Source: Thermoflexales bacterium
GTDB taxonomy: Bacteria > Chloroflexota > Anaerolineae > J036 > Brachytrichaceae
DNA length: 64,000 nt
Direction of reading: 5' to 3'
NCBI GenBank assembly: GCA_019694215.1
Contig: JAIBCK010000002.1
Location: 1-64,000 of the forward strand
Shown here piece by piece: positions 36,024 to 41,664 of this stretch (its first letter is position 1; each line of letters opens with the position of its first letter). Position numbers and translations under genes: made by a program. The notes beneath the pieces were generated by a model. The model saw nothing but the letters and a program-made list of their open reading frames with translations, searched no databases and was not told where the DNA came from.

Positions 36024-36410
36024 ATGTCCTTGAGCCCCGAAATCGAACGCCGGCTCGATGTCGAACGTAACCTGTGGTTGGCAACTGCGCGCGCCGATGG
36101 CACACCGCACCTCATCCCGGTCTGGTTCATCTGGCGCGACGGCGTCGCCTGGATCTGCACCGGACCGGAGAGCGTCAAAGCGCGCAACCTGCGAACCCAA
36201 CCCAAAGTCATGTTTGCCCTCGAGGATGGAGACAAGCCCGCGCTGGCTGCGGCGGTCGCAACGCGCACGACGCAGCCCTTCCCGGCCGAGATCGTCGCAG
36301 CCTTCAAGCAGAAGTACAACTGGGACATTCTCACGGACGCCGACTACGGCGACTTGTATGCGCTTCAGGTCACCCGCTGGCTGAGCTGGAAGCCAAGCGG
36401 CTCGGCGTAG
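36024..36410 (+). CDS. Pyridoxamine 5'-phosphate oxidase-like FMN/F420-binding family protein
   Basis: About 128 aa with a PPOX-like split-barrel pattern (LATARADGTPHLIPVWF). Confidence 0.55.
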   Translation: MSLSPEIERRLDVERNLWLATARADGTPHLIPVWFIWRDGVAWICTGPESVKARNLRTQPKVMFALEDGDKPALAAAVATRTTQPFPAEIVAAFKQKYNWDILTDADYGDLYALQVTRWLSWKPSGSA

Positions 36411-36412
36411 CC

Positions 36413-37678
36413 ATGCGCGCCTCCCTCGCCTACGGTCGGGGCAGCCTCGACGTCGATCTGCCTGAGGATGCCCGAATACTCACGGGCAAGCAAGCGCGCG
36501 GGCTCGCCCACCCTGCCCGCGCCATCGCCGACGCCCTCGCGGCCCCGCTGGCGGGTCCGCCGTTGGCCGAGCGGGTGCGCCCCGGCGACACCGTCGCCAT
36601 CGTTCACACGGATATCACCCGGGCAACACCCAACGCACTGATCCTACCCATTCTTCTGTCGGCCCTTGAAGCGGCCGGCGTGCGGCCCCGGGACATCACC
36701 CTGATCAACGCGCTGGGCACGCACCGCCGTCAAACCGACGCTGAACTGCGTACGCTGCTCGGGGATGCCGTTGTCGCGGGCTATCGCTGCATCCAGCATG
36801 ACGCCTGGGATGATGCCAACCTGGTTGACTTCGGTACGACCGGACGGGGAAACCCGGTGCGCATCAATCGTGCCTATGCGAAATCCGATGTCCGCATCCT
36901 GACGGGCTTCATCGAGCCACACTTCTTCGCCGGGTTCAGCGGCGGGCCGAAGGGCGTGCTGCCCTCCATCGCCGCCTTCGAATCTGTGCTGTCGAATCAC
37001 GGCTTTGACCTCATCGCCCATCCCGGCTCGACCTGGGGCGTGACCGAGGGCAACCCGATCTGGGAGGAAATGCGCGAGATGGCGCTGCGCACAGCGCCCA
37101 CGTTCCTGCTGAACGTCACGATGAACGACGCGCGGGAGCTGACCGGCGTCTTCGCCGGCGACCTGCTCCCCGCGCACGCCGCAGGCTGCCGCTTCGTCGC
37201 GGAGCATGCGCTGGTGCCTGTTGCTGATCCGTTTGACATCGTCATCACGACCAACAGCGGTTACCCGCTCGATCAAAATCTGTATCAGACCGTCAAGGGG
37301 ATGAGCGCCGCCGCGCGTGTGGTGCGCAAGGGCGGCGCGATCATCCTGGCCGCCGGTTGCGAAGATGGCCTGCCCAACCATGGCCAATATGCCAGCCTGC
37401 TGCGGCAGGGCGAGACGCCGCGCGGCGTGCTGGACATGCTCGCGCAGCCCGGCTTCCACGCGCACGACCAGTGGCAGGCGCAGACGCAGGCTCAGATCCA
37501 GTTGCGCGCCGATGTCTACGTTCATACCGACGGCCTGAGCGACGCCGACGTGCGCGCCGCCCTGCTCACGCCAGCGCGATTGCCGCAGGCGTTGCCCGGG
37601 CTGATCGCGCGCTACGGCCCGCGCGTGTGTGCGCTGCCCAATGGCCCGCTGGTGATCCCGACCCTCATGCCAGCCTAG
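36413..37678 (+). CDS. larA: LarA-family (nickel-pincer nucleotide-dependent) 2-hydroxyacid racemase/epimerase homolog
   Basis: Strong LarA motifs: HTDITRATP, FIEPHFFAGFSGGPKG (Lys for cofactor attachment), TTNSGYPLDQNLYQTVKGM. Confidence 0.8.
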   Translation: MRASLAYGRGSLDVDLPEDARILTGKQARGLAHPARAIADALAAPLAGPPLAERVRPGDTVAIVHTDITRATPNALILPILLSALEAAGVRPRDITLINALGTHRRQTDAELRTLLGDAVVAGYRCIQHDAWDDANLVDFGTTGRGNPVRINRAYAKSDVRILTGFIEPHFFAGFSGGPKGVLPSIAAFESVLSNHGFDLIAHPGSTWGVTEGNPIWEEMREMALRTAPTFLLNVTMNDARELTGVFAGDLLPAHAAGCRFVAEHALVPVADPFDIVITTNSGYPLDQNLYQTVKGMSAAARVVRKGGAIILAAGCEDGLPNHGQYASLLRQGETPRGVLDMLAQPGFHAHDQWQAQTQAQIQLRADVYVHTDGLSDADVRAALLTPARLPQALPGLIARYGPRVCALPNGPLVIPTLMPA

Positions 37679-37702
37679 CCGCTGAACGGCGGCCAGCAAC
37701 AG

Positions 37703-39109: not shown

Positions 39110-39150
39110 TCCCCTATGCTACCGGCTGGAGGTGGATACAATCCGCCGCC

Positions 39151-40392
39151 ATGTCGACGAACAAGAAGATCTATTACGGCTGGTTTGTCGTCGTCGCTGC
39201 CATCGCGCTCGCGCTGCTGGCTGCCGGCGTGCGTTCCATCCCCGGCATCATGCTGACGCCGATCATGCAGGACACGGGCTGGGAACGGGCATCCATCTCT
39301 GGTGCCGTTTCCGTCGGCCTGATCGTTTTTGGGTTGAGCTCGCCGCTCGCGGGTGCCCTCATCGCGCGATTTGGGCCCCGCCTCGTCGCCACCGCCGGCA
39401 CCGTATTGATCGCACTGTCGACGGCACTCAGCGCCTCGATGCAGAGCGTGCTCGGCATGTATCTGTTCTGGGGCGCGTTGAGCGGCCTCGCGACGGGTCT
39501 CGGGGGTGCCGTGATCGGCGCCACGGTGACGAACCGCTGGTTCCACACCCACCGGGGGCTGGTGAGCGGCATCTTCGGCGCCGCGACGTCCGCCGGGCAG
39601 CTGATCTTCATTCCGGCGTTGACGCAGGCCACCAATGTCAGTGGCTGGCGGACGACCACGCTCGGGGTCTCCGCGCTCGCGCTGCTGCTCGTCATCCCGG
39701 TCTGGCTTATCCTGCGCGACAACCCGTCGGACAAGGGATTGCTGCCGTATGGCGCACCGGAAGGGTTGCCGTCCAAGGCGGCCAGCCCCGGGGCGACCAA
39801 CGGTGTGATGTCCCTCGCGCTGCGCTCGCCGACCTTCTGGCTGCTGGCCGGCACCTTCTTCGTGTGCGGGTTCTCGAGCAACGGCATCGTGGGCACGCAC
39901 TTCATGGCCTATGCGGCGGATTGCGGCATTGCGGCCCTGACAGCGGCCGGCATGCTGTCCATCATGGGTGTGATGAACTTTGCAGGCACGCTGGCCTCGG
40001 GTTGGCTCACGGATAAAGTTGATCCGCGAAAGTTGTTGCTGGCGTACTATGTCTTTCGTGGCGTGTCGCTTGTCCTTCTGCCGCTCTTCACCGAGACCAC
40101 CGGGTTGACCCTACTCATGATCCTGTTTGGCCTGGACTACATCGCCACGGTGCCGCCCACCCAGGTGCTGGTGGCCGACAACTTTGGACGGCAGAACGTC
40201 GGGCTCGTCTACGGCTGGGTGTTTTGCGCGCATCAGCTTGGCGCGGCGATCTCCGCGTTCCTCGGCGGCGCGATTCGCGATTCGCTGGGCAGCTATGGCT
40301 TCGCCTTCGTCATGACCGGCATCGTTGCCATGGTTGCCGGTGTGGTTGCCCTGCGCATCTCGCGGCGCGACGCGGCGCCGGCCGTGGCTTGA
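39151..40392 (+). CDS. MFS transporter
   Basis: 12 predicted TMs and an MFS motif region. Confidence 0.8.
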   Translation: MSTNKKIYYGWFVVVAAIALALLAAGVRSIPGIMLTPIMQDTGWERASISGAVSVGLIVFGLSSPLAGALIARFGPRLVATAGTVLIALSTALSASMQSVLGMYLFWGALSGLATGLGGAVIGATVTNRWFHTHRGLVSGIFGAATSAGQLIFIPALTQATNVSGWRTTTLGVSALALLLVIPVWLILRDNPSDKGLLPYGAPEGLPSKAASPGATNGVMSLALRSPTFWLLAGTFFVCGFSSNGIVGTHFMAYAADCGIAALTAAGMLSIMGVMNFAGTLASGWLTDKVDPRKLLLAYYVFRGVSLVLLPLFTETTGLTLLMILFGLDYIATVPPTQVLVADNFGRQNVGLVYGWVFCAHQLGAAISAFLGGAIRDSLGSYGFAFVMTGIVAMVAGVVALRISRRDAAPAVA

Positions 40393-40425
40393 TGACGCCC
40401 GGGTAGCCTGCGCCCGTCGTCGCGC

Positions 40426-41664
40426 TCAGGCCAGCTTGCCGTGCGCGAGGATGGCATTGGCGGCGCGCCAGCCCGTCTCGATGGCACCGTGCACGGTGCC
40501 GACATGGCCGTTCGTGCTGCACGCTTCGCCCGCAAAATAAAGCGGCGGAAGCGCTTCTGCCAGCGCCTCACGGGCACCTGCCCCACCCACGGGCGTGTAG
40601 CTGTAGCCACCCAGGATGTACGGCTCGGCCGTCCAGTCGGTGACCACGCCCTCGATAAAGGCACCGCGCGCGTGGTTGCCGAACCAGCCGCACACATCAT
40701 CGAGCGCATCCTCGATCACCCGCGATTCGCCCAACGCACGTACTCGCAGCGTCTCCGGTCCACCCATCAGGCCAACGAGCGCCGTGCTCTCCGCGGCCCG
40801 CCACCACCCCGGCACGCGGGAGTCCGCGCCAAGGTAGCTGAAGCTGGGCCATACCGGCTCGCGAAACCACAGCGCGACCTTGGCAGCCTGGCCCATCCGC
40901 AGCCGTGAGATGCCATCGAGCTTGCGCGCGGGAAGGACGGGGTCAAAGGCAATCAGCCCACGTTGCAGGATGGAGAGGGGCACGCTCAAGACCACCTCGC
41001 CCGCGCGCCAGGTGCGTCCATCGACTGCGGTGACCGTCGCGCCACCGGACGTCCAACGCACATGTGCGACCGGCGTGTTGAGCGCGATCTTCAGGCCGCG
41101 TGCGAGCACGTCGATCACCTGGCTGTAGCCGCCAGGAAAGCGGGCGTTGTCCCAGCCCGCGGTGTTCAGCGCCCGCTCGCGGGCGAGCTCGCGCGCGCTC
41201 AAGTCATCGGGATCCGCCGCCTCGATGCGCGCGAGGCGCTGTAGGGCGAAGTCGACGGCTGGCCCACCCTCGGGATGAAGACGATGAAAAGCCGCGCGCA
41301 GGCTGACGTCGGGGCCCGCGTAGCGCTCCATCTCATCGACAATCTCCTCGATGCGCGGGGCTGCGGGCCAGTCGACGGCTTCCAGTCGCCTGCCACGCGC
41401 GAAGCGCCGCGGCCTCTCCGCTGTGACCTCGAAGGGAAGCGTCTTCAGCCCCGCACTGCGGATGATCTGCCATGTCGTCGCATTGTTGCCGTGGACGTAC
41501 TCGGCTCCGAGCTCGACCGCGCCGCGGCGAAAGTCCGTGCGAACTCGGCCGCCAATACGGCCGGAGGCCTCGAGCACGACGACGTCGTGACCCGAGGCCT
41601 CCAGTCGCTGCGCCGCGGCGAGACCTGCCGCACCCGCGCCGATGACAACTACGCCGGCGTCCAT
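40426..41664 (-). CDS. FAD-dependent amine oxidase (flavin monoamine oxidase family)
   Basis: N-terminal GAGAAGLAAA dinucleotide-binding motif (VVIGAGAAGLAAAQRL) and a C-terminal amine oxidase pattern. Confidence 0.75.
   Translation of the reverse strand: MDAGVVVIGAGAAGLAAAQRLEASGHDVVVLEASGRIGGRVRTDFRRGAVELGAEYVHGNNATTWQIIRSAGLKTLPFEVTAERPRRFARGRRLEAVDWPAAPRIEEIVDEMERYAGPDVSLRAAFHRLHPEGGPAVDFALQRLARIEAADPDDLSARELARERALNTAGWDNARFPGGYSQVIDVLARGLKIALNTPVAHVRWTSGGATVTAVDGRTWRAGEVVLSVPLSILQRGLIAFDPVLPARKLDGISRLRMGQAAKVALWFREPVWPSFSYLGADSRVPGWWRAAESTALVGLMGGPETLRVRALGESRVIEDALDDVCGWFGNHARGAFIEGVVTDWTAEPYILGGYSYTPVGGAGAREALAEALPPLYFAGEACSTNGHVGTVHGAIETGWRAANAILAHGKLA

What the first reader, a model, noticed from the sequence alone, without database searches (positions are those of the whole stretch)
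36024..41664. Orphan LarA-family (nickel-pincer cofactor) racemase homolog in a catabolic cluster with amidase, MFS transporter, FAD amine oxidase and PPOX-like protein
The LarA homolog retains the cofactor-binding Lys (FSGGPKG) and His motifs. No larB, larC or larE cofactor-biosynthesis genes are in the window. It is co-located with a PPOX-like flavoprotein (10-nt gap), an amidase (convergent), an MFS transporter and a flavin amine oxidase. LarA homologs are known to racemise or epimerise diverse 2-hydroxy acids. Together with an amidase and amine oxidase, this suggests uptake and conversion of a 2-hydroxy-acid amide or amino-acid-derived compound via an uncharacterised route.
Basis: partly seen in the sequence, partly recalled or inferred. 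Interest (0 to 1): 0.55.

Follow-up and report, generated by a model that had tools for sequence, protein, structure and literature searches.

The report
Ordinary lactate-racemase homolog, chance neighbours
The window holds an intact nickel-pincer (LarA-type) 2-hydroxyacid racemase gene of the lactate-racemase group, but its amidase, transporter, amine-oxidase and PPOX-like neighbours are not found beside it in any related genome, so this is an ordinary gene in a chance neighbourhood, not a new pathway.

Summary
The five genes are there as described. One correction: the LarA homolog starts at ATG 36413, 2 nt after the PPOX-like stop, not 10.

The LarA homolog (421 aa) is a full family member by sequence and predicted fold:
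- It has the Lar_N and LarA_C domains.
- The model matches solved LarA structures (TM 0.89-0.94).
- Every catalytic, cofactor-binding and substrate-binding residue is kept.
- Its pocket signature is F,F,W,Q, the published signature of the lactate racemase (LAR) group.

No larB, larC or larE lies in the 64 kb. That is normal for this clade: in 84 related loci outside this organism, larE is adjacent in 4 and a full larBCE set in 1. "Orphan" therefore says little. The rest of the genome could not be searched.

The "catabolic cluster" reading is not supported:
- None of those 84 LarA loci has the PPOX-like or amine oxidase gene within 10 kb. One has an amidase homolog and one a weak MFS homolog.
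- Of 80 amidase-homolog loci, one has a distant LarA-like gene and none has the oxidase.
- The genes alternate strands.
- The oxidase looks co-transcribed with unrelated upstream genes.
- The MFS lacks the carboxylate-binding Arg and Tyr of the lactate transporter it resembles.

Best reading: a stand-alone lactate or small 2-hydroxyacid racemase in a Chloroflexota-like genome. Interest is low.

The parts
36413..37678 (+). LarA homolog (421 aa): predicted nickel-pincer-nucleotide-dependent short-chain 2-hydroxyacid (lactate-group) racemase
   Evidence: - Domains: Pfam Lar_N E 7e-61 plus LarA_C E 1e-25.
- NCBIfam Ni_dep_LarA scores 449.1 bits against a cut-off of 460.
- PDB sequence hits: 9EID E 7e-77, 2YJG, 5HUQ.
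- AF2 model: pLDDT 85.3, with TM 0.94, 0.91 and 0.89 to 9EID, 5HUQ/6C1W and 2YJG.
- Residue equivalents of LarA1: D67, R70, H104, H170, F171, F172, K180, H196, Y291, Q292, K295, W354, Q355. All but Q355 are invariant in 36 clade members.
- Start codon fixed.
36024..36410 (+). PNPOx/PPOX-like split-barrel protein (128 aa). Its stop lies 2 nt before the LarA start. A functional link is not supported.
   Evidence: - PF01243 E 7.6e-11.
- F420-PPOX NCBIfam models score below their cut-offs.
- Best PDB hit is Rv2991 (1RFE), E 8e-11.
- No homolog lies within 10 kb of LarA in 84 related loci outside this organism.
33414..36014 (+). mutS (866 aa). It lies on the same strand, 9 nt upstream of the PPOX-like gene, whose GGAGG ribosome-binding site overlaps the mutS stop codon. 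Context only.
   Evidence: Translation, sequence. The mutS-PPOX-larA order is also seen in the two 100%-identical Logan contigs L002 and L003.
37703..39109 (-). Amidase-signature amidase (468 aa), convergent with LarA across a 24-nt gap. Not linked to LarA by any conserved context.
   Evidence: - PF01425 E 7e-103.
- NF004815 scores 550.9 bits, above its cut-off of 506.
- Best PDB hit is aryl acylamidase 4YJ6, E 1e-74.
- In 80 homolog loci, a LarA-like gene occurs in 1 and the amine oxidase in 0.
- Its neighbours fall into 112 Pfam families among 118 ORFs.
39151..40392 (+). MFS transporter of the oxalate:formate antiporter / monocarboxylate-transporter-like group (413 aa). Substrate unknown. 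It lacks the SfMCT carboxylate-binding residues.
   Evidence: - PF07690.
- NCBIfam SfMCT scores 169.8 bits against a cut-off of 320.
- Best PDB hit is 6G9X, E 2.4e-27.
- In that alignment SfMCT R280 aligns to Thr and Y119 to Gly, while N276 and Y331 are kept.
- The role of R280 and Y119 is taken from PMC9814091.
40426..41664 (-). Flavin amine oxidase (412 aa), polyamine/LSD-type. Its start overlaps by 16 nt the stop of the upstream minus-strand gene.
   Evidence: - PF01593 E 4e-64.
- Best PDB hits are LSD2, LSD1, spermine oxidase and polyamine oxidase.
- Coordinates.
- Absent from all 84 LarA loci outside this organism and all 80 amidase loci.
41649..42737 (-). Gly/Gln-rich repeat protein (362 aa, no family hit), directly upstream of and overlapping the amine oxidase gene. 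Context only.
   Evidence: One search gives the translation with repeats of the form GGMGDILGSI(L/I)GGAMGG. There are no Pfam or NCBIfam hits.

Best explanation
The gene at 36413-37678 encodes a normal member of the LarA superfamily, in the lactate racemase (LAR) functional group.

[quoted passage not shown] It inverts C2 of a small 2-hydroxyacid by proton-coupled hydride transfer, using His104 and His170 as the acid/base pair. Arg70, Gln292, Lys295 and Tyr291 hold the carboxylate and the 2-OH group. The small Phe171/Phe172/Trp354/Gln355 pocket limits it to lactate-sized substrates. Lactate is the most likely substrate. Glycerate and 2-hydroxybutyrate are plausible alternatives.

The cofactor would be made by larB, larC and larE encoded elsewhere in the genome, which is the usual arrangement in this clade.

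The neighbouring PPOX-like, amidase, MFS and amine-oxidase genes are unrelated housekeeping or metabolic genes that happen to lie nearby. They do not form a pathway with LarA.

Shown here: family membership, the residues, the fold, the absence of larBCE from the window, and the lack of a conserved neighbourhood.
Inferred: the substrate, the cofactor supply and the physiological role.
For: - Domain and family scores. The best NCBIfam model is Ni_dep_LarA at 449 bits, well above the malate racemase models (337 and 290) and LarAH10 (286).
- Residue mapping onto L. plantarum LarA1: D72/R75/H108/H174/F175/F176/K184/H200/Y294/Q295/K298/W358/T359 correspond to D67/R70/H104/H170/F171/F172/K180/H196/Y291/Q292/K295/W354/Q355.
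- All of these except the last are invariant in 36 clade members at 63-74% identity.
- The signature H-F-F...K...H...W-Q/E occurs in 79 of the 82 related genome and metagenome loci aligned.
- Published rule: LARs usually have F, F, W, E/Q at these four positions (PMC11770544).
- The SAR group has Leu/Met or Phe/Met in the loop (PMC7583248).
- The Phe-Phe pair gives a smaller pocket and a narrower substrate range (bioRxiv 10.1101/2024.11.28.625916).
- Fold: pLDDT 85.3, with TM 0.94, 0.91 and 0.89 to solved LarAs.
- larBCE is rarely adjacent in this clade: larE in 4 and a full set in 1 of 84 loci outside this organism.
- No conserved neighbourhood.
Against: - The NCBIfam LarA equivalog cut-off is narrowly missed (449.1 against 460).
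- Identity to any characterised LarA is only 35-38%, so the substrate call rests on four pocket residues.
- Relatives with the same F,F,W,Q signature sit beside glycerate kinase (10 loci) or inside L-rhamnose/AFOR clusters. The physiological substrate may therefore differ between subclades.
- larB, larC and larE could not be looked for in the rest of this genome.
- The 2-nt PPOX-LarA spacing suggests co-translation, which a pure chance reading does not explain. However, mutS sits equally tightly upstream.
Confidence: 0.75

Rival explanations
1. One reading: the five genes form one catabolic route. The MFS takes up a 2-hydroxy-acid amide or an amino-acid-derived compound. The amidase and amine oxidase convert it to a 2-hydroxy or 2-oxo acid. 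LarA then racemises the product, and the PPOX-like flavoprotein assists.
For: - The genes are physically adjacent within 5.6 kb.
- Amidase action on lactamide-like compounds would yield a LarA-type substrate (inference).
- One of 80 amidase-homolog loci (L119) has a distant LarA-like gene plus larE beside the amidase.
Against: - 0 of 84 LarA loci outside this organism have the PPOX-like gene or the oxidase. One has an amidase homolog and one a weak MFS homolog.
- Immediate LarA neighbours fall into 137 Pfam families among 142 ORFs. None of the four families is among those seen twice or more.
- 0 of 80 amidase loci have the oxidase.
- The genes alternate strands.
- The oxidase is coupled to upstream LOG and repeat-protein genes.
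- PPOX and LarA are coupled to mutS.
- The MFS lacks the carboxylate-binding Arg and Tyr.
Confidence: 0.05
2. This is the same enzyme family, but the physiological substrate is glycerate or another small polar 2-hydroxyacid rather than lactate.
For: - Gln at the T359-equivalent position, as in LarAH43, which is slightly more efficient on glycerate than on lactate (PMC11770544).
- Relatives at 44-64% identity with the same signature lie next to glycerate kinase, a KdgT-like permease and a CdaR regulator in 10 loci.
Against: - The closest relatives (71-73% identity) are in L-rhamnose/AFOR clusters, whose expected product is lactaldehyde and then lactate (the pathway step is inference).
- No glycerate kinase lies in the window.
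- All characterised LAR-group enzymes also racemise lactate.
Confidence: 0.2
3. The LarA homolog is a cofactor-less relic, or it uses something other than NPN, because the organism lacks larBCE.
For: No larB, larC or larE lies in 64 kb.
Against: - All NPN-binding and catalytic residues are intact and invariant across the clade, which indicates purifying selection.
- Absence of larBCE from the local region is the norm for this clade.
- Published genome surveys describe LarA homologs as present together with the NPN-synthesis enzymes, and describe larBCE without larA, not the reverse (PMC11796402).
Confidence: 0.04

Closest known systems
Lactate racemase LarA1 of Lactiplantibacillus plantarum (PDB 5HUQ/6C1W) and the LAR group of the LarA superfamily
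   Same: - Same two-domain fold (TM 0.91).
- Same NPN-tethering Lys, Ni-ligand His, two catalytic His, and Arg/Gln/Lys/Tyr substrate-binding residues.
- Same Phe-Phe loop and Trp in the pocket.
- F,F,W,Q fits the published LAR signature F,F,W,E/Q.
   Different: - Only about 38% identical.
- Gln instead of Thr at position 359.
- Just under the NCBIfam equivalog cut-off (449.1 against 460).
- Not in a larA-larBCE operon, unlike the L. plantarum lar operon (the operon is from my own knowledge).
LarAH2/Sar (LarA_Ip) of Isosphaera pallida, a broad-spectrum short-chain 2-hydroxyacid racemase (PDB 9EIA/9EID)
   Same: - Best sequence and structure match in the PDB (E 7e-77, TM 0.94).
- Same Trp-Gln pair in the pocket.
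   Different: The loop residues are Phe-Phe here, against Leu174-Met175 in LarA_Ip. Those smaller residues are what give LarA_Ip its larger pocket and broad spectrum. A narrower, LAR-like range is therefore expected here.
LarAH43 of Enterocloster asparagiformis (LAR group, active on lactate and glycerate)
   Same: It has Gln at the T359-equivalent position, which the authors link to glycerate preference.
SfMCT, the L-lactate MFS transporter of Syntrophobacter fumaroxidans (PDB 6G9X), as a comparison for the neighbouring MFS
   Same: - Best PDB and NCBIfam match, aligned over nearly the full length.
- N276 and Y331 equivalents are kept.
   Different: - The carboxylate-binding R280 is Thr and Y119 is Gly.
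- The score is far below the family cut-off (169.8 against 320).

Membership tests
LarA superfamily (NPN-dependent 2-hydroxyacid racemases/epimerases; DUF2088/COG3875) | Lar_N plus LarA_C two-domain architecture and fold | tested here: met
   PF09861 E 7e-61 and PF21113 E 1e-25. AF2 model pLDDT 85.3, with Foldseek TM 0.89-0.94 to 9EID, 5HUQ and 2YJG.
LarA superfamily (NPN-dependent 2-hydroxyacid racemases/epimerases; DUF2088/COG3875) | NPN-binding residues: Lys184 (covalent tether), His200 (Ni ligand), Arg75, Asp72 | tested here: met
   K180, H196, R70 and D67 by alignment to 5HUQ. They are invariant in 36 clade members, apart from one gap at R70.
LarA superfamily (NPN-dependent 2-hydroxyacid racemases/epimerases; DUF2088/COG3875) | Two catalytic histidines (His108, His174) and substrate-anchoring Tyr294, Gln295, Lys298 | tested here: met
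   H104, H170, Y291, Q292 and K295.
LarA superfamily (NPN-dependent 2-hydroxyacid racemases/epimerases; DUF2088/COG3875) | Cofactor supply: larB, larC and larE present in the same genome | not testable with these tools
   They are absent from the 64-kb window. The organism is not in genome contigs (best match 65% identity). It is held only as two 3.5-kb Logan contigs.
LarA superfamily (NPN-dependent 2-hydroxyacid racemases/epimerases; DUF2088/COG3875) | Ni/NPN-dependent C2 racemase or epimerase activity | not testable with these tools
   This needs a biochemical assay.
LAR (lactate racemase) functional group within the superfamily | Pocket signature F, F, W, E/Q at the LarA1 positions 175, 176, 358, 359 (PMC11770544) | tested here: met
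   F171, F172, W354, Q355.
LAR (lactate racemase) functional group within the superfamily | NCBIfam NF033504 (Ni_dep_LarA equivalog) score at or above the curated cut-off | tested here: not met
   449.1 bits against a cut-off of 460. It is a narrow miss and still by far the best-scoring LarA-type model.
SAR / LarAH2 group (broad-spectrum short-chain aliphatic racemases) | Leu-Met or Phe-Met in the substrate loop (PMC7583248) | tested here: not met
   The loop is Phe171-Phe172.
   PPOX-like 0, amine oxidase 0, amidase 1, MFS 1 (weak) of 84 loci outside this organism. From the amidase side, LarA-like 1 and oxidase 0 of 80 loci.
SfMCT-type L-lactate MFS transporter (for the neighbouring MFS) | Carboxylate-binding Arg280 (TM8) and Tyr119 (TM4); NCBIfam NF049980 cut-off | tested here: not met
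   Thr and Gly at those positions. The role of these residues is from PMC9814091. The score is 169.8 against 320 bits.

The most novel reading that the evidence does not exclude
In this one lineage the tight mutS-PPOX-larA arrangement and the adjacent amidase could reflect a newly assembled route. An amidase would release a small 2-hydroxyacid (for example lactate from lactamide) for racemisation. Alternatively the PPOX-like F420/FMN protein could work with LarA. A third possibility is that the organism truly lacks larBCE and loads LarA in another way. None of these is excluded, because the rest of the genome and expression data are unavailable.
Probability: 0.05. Interest if true: 0.5.

Novelty: new member of a known kind. 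Interest (0 to 1): 0.13.

Why it matters
It matters little beyond correct annotation. The gene adds one more uncharacterised member, 35-38% identical to studied enzymes, to the large LAR group of NPN-dependent racemases. More than 8000 relatives score E <= 1e-30.

The useful lesson is negative. For this clade, local gene context is too variable to predict substrate or pathway, and the absence of larBCE nearby is uninformative.

The clade's recurring contexts elsewhere are better leads for physiology than this window. They are glycerate kinase in Bacillales and some Verrucomicrobiota, and L-rhamnose/AFOR clusters with an unknown coupled protein in close Chloroflexota relatives.

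Tried and rejected
- Exact-sequence lookup of the window LarA found nothing. The identical cluster representative P0001 led only to two 3.5-kb Logan contigs of the same organism. No longer contig could be obtained.
- The single genome-contig scan did not contain this organism (best 65% identity). A genome-wide larBCE search was therefore impossible.
- I ran no further search on LarB. Its top hits would be Bacillales relatives of the seed and would say nothing about this genome.
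- The sigma-70 promoter and intrinsic terminator scan of 33000-43500 gave counts at or below shuffled expectation and was uninformative.
- The first attempt to scan 150 neighbour ORFs exceeded the residue limit. It was repeated with 142.
- I rejected the idea that the PP-loop gene at 22638-23504 is larE. It is NadE: 319.6 bits on NF010587 against 37.5 on the LarE model.
- I considered the MFS as a lactate permease that would support a lactate role. I rejected this as evidence because the carboxylate-binding Arg and Tyr are missing and the gene is not conserved beside LarA.
- The unknown 410-442 aa protein coupled to LarA in the closest relatives has no Pfam, NCBIfam or PDB match and no homolog in the window.

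Full report
**1. What is in the sequence**

The window is 61-70% G+C in 2-kb windows (about 66% overall), so ORF lists are noisy. Codon-position G+C and family scans give a clear gene map for 33.4-44.5 kb.

| Gene | Coordinates | Strand | Length | Evidence |
|---|---|---|---|---|
| mutS | 33414-36014 | + | 866 aa | |
| PNPOx/PPOX-like | 36024-36410 | + | 128 aa | PF01243 E 7.6e-11 |
| LarA homolog | 36413-37678 | + | 421 aa | Lar_N E 7e-61, LarA_C E 1e-25 |
| Amidase | 37703-39109 | - | 468 aa | PF01425 E 7e-103 |
| MFS transporter | 39151-40392 | + | 413 aa | PF07690 |
| Flavin amine oxidase | 40426-41664 | - | 412 aa | PF01593 E 4e-64 |
| Gly/Gln-rich repeat protein | 41649-42737 | - | 362 aa | no family hit |
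| LOG-family protein | 42849-43415 | - | 188 aa | |
| PLD-like protein | 43483-44481 | + | 332 aa | |

The mechanical ORF for LarA begins at GTG 36074. The only later in-frame start is ATG 36413. Homologs align from residue 1 of that version. The gap after the PPOX stop is therefore 2 nt, not the 10 nt reported.

Spacing between the genes:
- mutS to PPOX: 9 nt, with a GGAGG ribosome-binding site overlapping the mutS stop.
- LarA to amidase: convergent, 24 nt.
- Amidase to MFS: divergent, 41 nt.
- MFS to oxidase: convergent, 33 nt.
- The oxidase start overlaps the stop of the repeat-protein gene by 16 nt.

The five "cluster" genes therefore belong to at least four transcription units. Two of these are more tightly joined to unrelated genes (mutS; LOG and the repeat protein) than to each other.

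**2. The LarA homolog is an intact LAR-group member**

*Family scores.* The best NCBIfam model is Ni_dep_LarA at 449.1 bits, just under its 460 cut-off. It is well ahead of the two malate racemase models (337 and 290) and LarAH10 (286).

*Solved relatives.* The best are I. pallida LarA (9EID, E 7e-77), T. thermosaccharolyticum LarA (2YJG) and L. plantarum LarA (5HUQ). Identity to each is only 35-38%.

*Predicted structure.* An AlphaFold2 model built from 36 clade sequences has pLDDT 85.3 and pTM 0.85. It superposes on 9EID, 5HUQ/6C1W and 2YJG with TM 0.94, 0.91 and 0.89. The match to malate racemase Mar2 is weaker, at 0.75.

*Residues.* Counting through the HMMER alignment to 5HUQ gives these equivalents:

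| LarA1 | D72 | R75 | H108 | H174 | F175 | F176 | K184 | H200 | Y294 | Q295 | K298 | W358 | T359 |
|---|---|---|---|---|---|---|---|---|---|---|---|---|---|
| Window | D67 | R70 | H104 | H170 | F171 | F172 | K180 | H196 | Y291 | Q292 | K295 | W354 | Q355 |

These are the catalytic, NPN-binding and substrate residues listed in PMC7583248 and PMC11770544. All but the last are invariant in the 36-sequence clade alignment.

*Substrate signature.*
- Urdiain-Arraiza et al. state that LARs usually carry F, F, W, E/Q at positions 175, 176, 358 and 359. The window protein has F, F, W, Q.
- The SAR group has Leu-Met or Phe-Met in the loop.
- The I. pallida co-structures show that Leu174, Met175, Trp356 and Gln357 form the pocket for the C-alpha substituent. 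They also show that the bulky Phe-Phe pair of LarA1 makes the pocket smaller and the substrate range narrower.
- The prediction is therefore a lactate-sized substrate range. Glycerate and 2-hydroxybutyrate are known side or alternative substrates of LAR enzymes.

**3. The "orphan" status**

No LarB, LarC or LarE is encoded in the 64 kb. This rests on a Pfam scan of the 55 plausible ORFs. It also rests on a six-frame tblastn with LarB, LarC1, LarC2 and LarE seeds, which I identified in related loci L075, L061 and L039. The only PP-loop gene is NadE.

This is not unusual for the clade. I examined 84 related loci outside this organism:
- 80 species-representative genomes at 44-65% identity;
- four metagenome places at 71-73% identity.

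Among them larE lies within 10 kb of larA in four loci, and a complete larE-larC1-larB-larC2 set in one, L075.

The invariant cofactor residues argue that NPN is available in these organisms. This is an inference.

Whether this particular genome has larBCE could not be tested. The organism is absent from the genome collection and is held only as two 3.5-kb contigs.

**4. The neighbourhood is not conserved**

*From the LarA side.* tblastn of the window's proteins against the 84 loci gave:
- PPOX-like: 0;
- amine oxidase: 0;
- amidase: 1 (L077, 33% identity, about 7 kb away);
- MFS: 1 (L080, 28% identity, about 8 kb away).

Only the two 100%-identical Logan contigs share the mutS-PPOX-LarA-amidase order.

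A Pfam scan of the ORFs immediately flanking LarA in 80 genomes gave 137 families among 142 neighbours. The most frequent were SGL (7), KdgT (6), sulfatase (6) and glycerate kinase (4). None of the window's four families appeared twice or more.

*From the amidase side.* In 80 metagenome loci at 41-63% identity, the counts were:
- a distant LarA-like gene: 1 locus;
- amine oxidase: 0;
- weak MFS hits: 2;
- weak PPOX-like hits: 2.

Flanking ORFs fell into 112 families among 118, led by carbamoyltransferase with 7.

**5. The neighbours themselves**

- Amidase: passes the NCBIfam PRK06169 cut-off. It is closest to an aryl acylamidase structure.
- Oxidase: a polyamine/LSD-type flavin amine oxidase.
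- PPOX-like protein: resembles Rv2991-type split-barrel proteins.
- MFS: its best match is the L-lactate transporter SfMCT, at 169.8 bits against a 320 cut-off (PDB E 2.4e-27). In the alignment SfMCT Arg280 is Thr and Tyr119 is Gly. Arg280 is the only positive residue of the SfMCT binding site and binds the lactate carboxylate. Tyr119 hydrogen-bonds the carboxylate of bound inhibitors (PMC9814091). The MFS cannot be used as evidence for lactate uptake.

**6. What the clade's contexts suggest elsewhere**

- The closest relatives (71-73% identity) lie directly after a conserved 410-442 aa protein of no known family. They sit inside L-rhamnose catabolic clusters with RhaA, an FGGY kinase, RhaM, a class II aldolase, DeoR, rhamnosidases and an aldehyde:ferredoxin oxidoreductase. 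Rhamnose breakdown yields lactaldehyde, and its oxidation gives lactate. This pathway knowledge is an inference, not something tested here, but it fits a lactate racemase role.
- More distant Bacillales and Verrucomicrobiota relatives lie beside glycerate kinase, a KdgT-like permease and CdaR. This fits glycerate racemisation.
- None of these partners is in the window.

**7. Verdict**

The interpretation as an uncharacterised multi-gene route is not supported.

The gene is a new but ordinary member of a well-described enzyme family. It most likely acts alone as a lactate or small 2-hydroxyacid racemase, with cofactor genes elsewhere in the genome.

The residual novel readings are a lineage-specific amidase-LarA or PPOX-LarA link, or true absence of larBCE. 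I rate them at about 5% in total.

Noticed in passing
L084:5068-6396, L085:4071-5303, L087:2673-3956 (related loci): In the closest LarA relatives (71-73% identity) the gene is translationally coupled to an upstream conserved 410-442 aa protein. That protein has no Pfam, NCBIfam or PDB match. In L084 and L087 it is preceded by a small TatA gene. The genes sit inside L-rhamnose catabolic clusters with an aldehyde:ferredoxin oxidoreductase. No homolog of the unknown protein is in the window.
   Followed up: partly
L060-L063, L065-L067, L073, L075, L077 (related loci): LarA relatives at 44-64% identity with the same F,F,W,Q signature sit beside glycerate kinase in 10 loci. They often also have a KdgT-like permease and a CdaR regulator. 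This suggests a physiological glycerate racemase role in Bacillales and some Verrucomicrobiota.
   Followed up: partly
L119:3225-7194 (marine metagenome contig Ga0310345_10011830): This is the only one of 80 amidase-homolog loci with a LarA-like gene. A distant LarA-like ORF (29% identity, 468 aa, 4082-5488, minus strand) plus larE (3225-4052, minus strand) lies divergent from the amidase homolog (5770-7194, plus strand).
   Followed up: no
window 39151-40392: This MFS transporter of the oxalate:formate antiporter / SLC16-like group has Thr and Gly where SfMCT has the carboxylate-binding Arg280 and Tyr119. Its substrate is probably not a simple monocarboxylate bound in the SfMCT manner.
   Followed up: partly
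window 41649-42737 (-): A 362-aa Gly/Gln-rich protein with tandem repeats of the form GGMGDILGSI(L/I)GGAMGG...QQAAPQGG has no Pfam or NCBIfam hit. Its stop overlaps the amine oxidase start by 16 nt, and it follows a LOG-family gene (42849-43415).
   Followed up: no
window 22638-23504 (-): NH3-dependent NAD+ synthetase (NadE) is the only PP-loop ATPase in the window. It gives a weak hit to LarE models that could be mistaken for larE.
   Followed up: yes
window 44478-45992 (-): The ketopantoate-reductase-like ORF (PanE/ApbA domains at residues 154-476) has a 150-aa Arg/Gly-rich N-terminal extension. This is probably an over-called start. It also overlaps a spurious plus-strand ORF.
   Followed up: no
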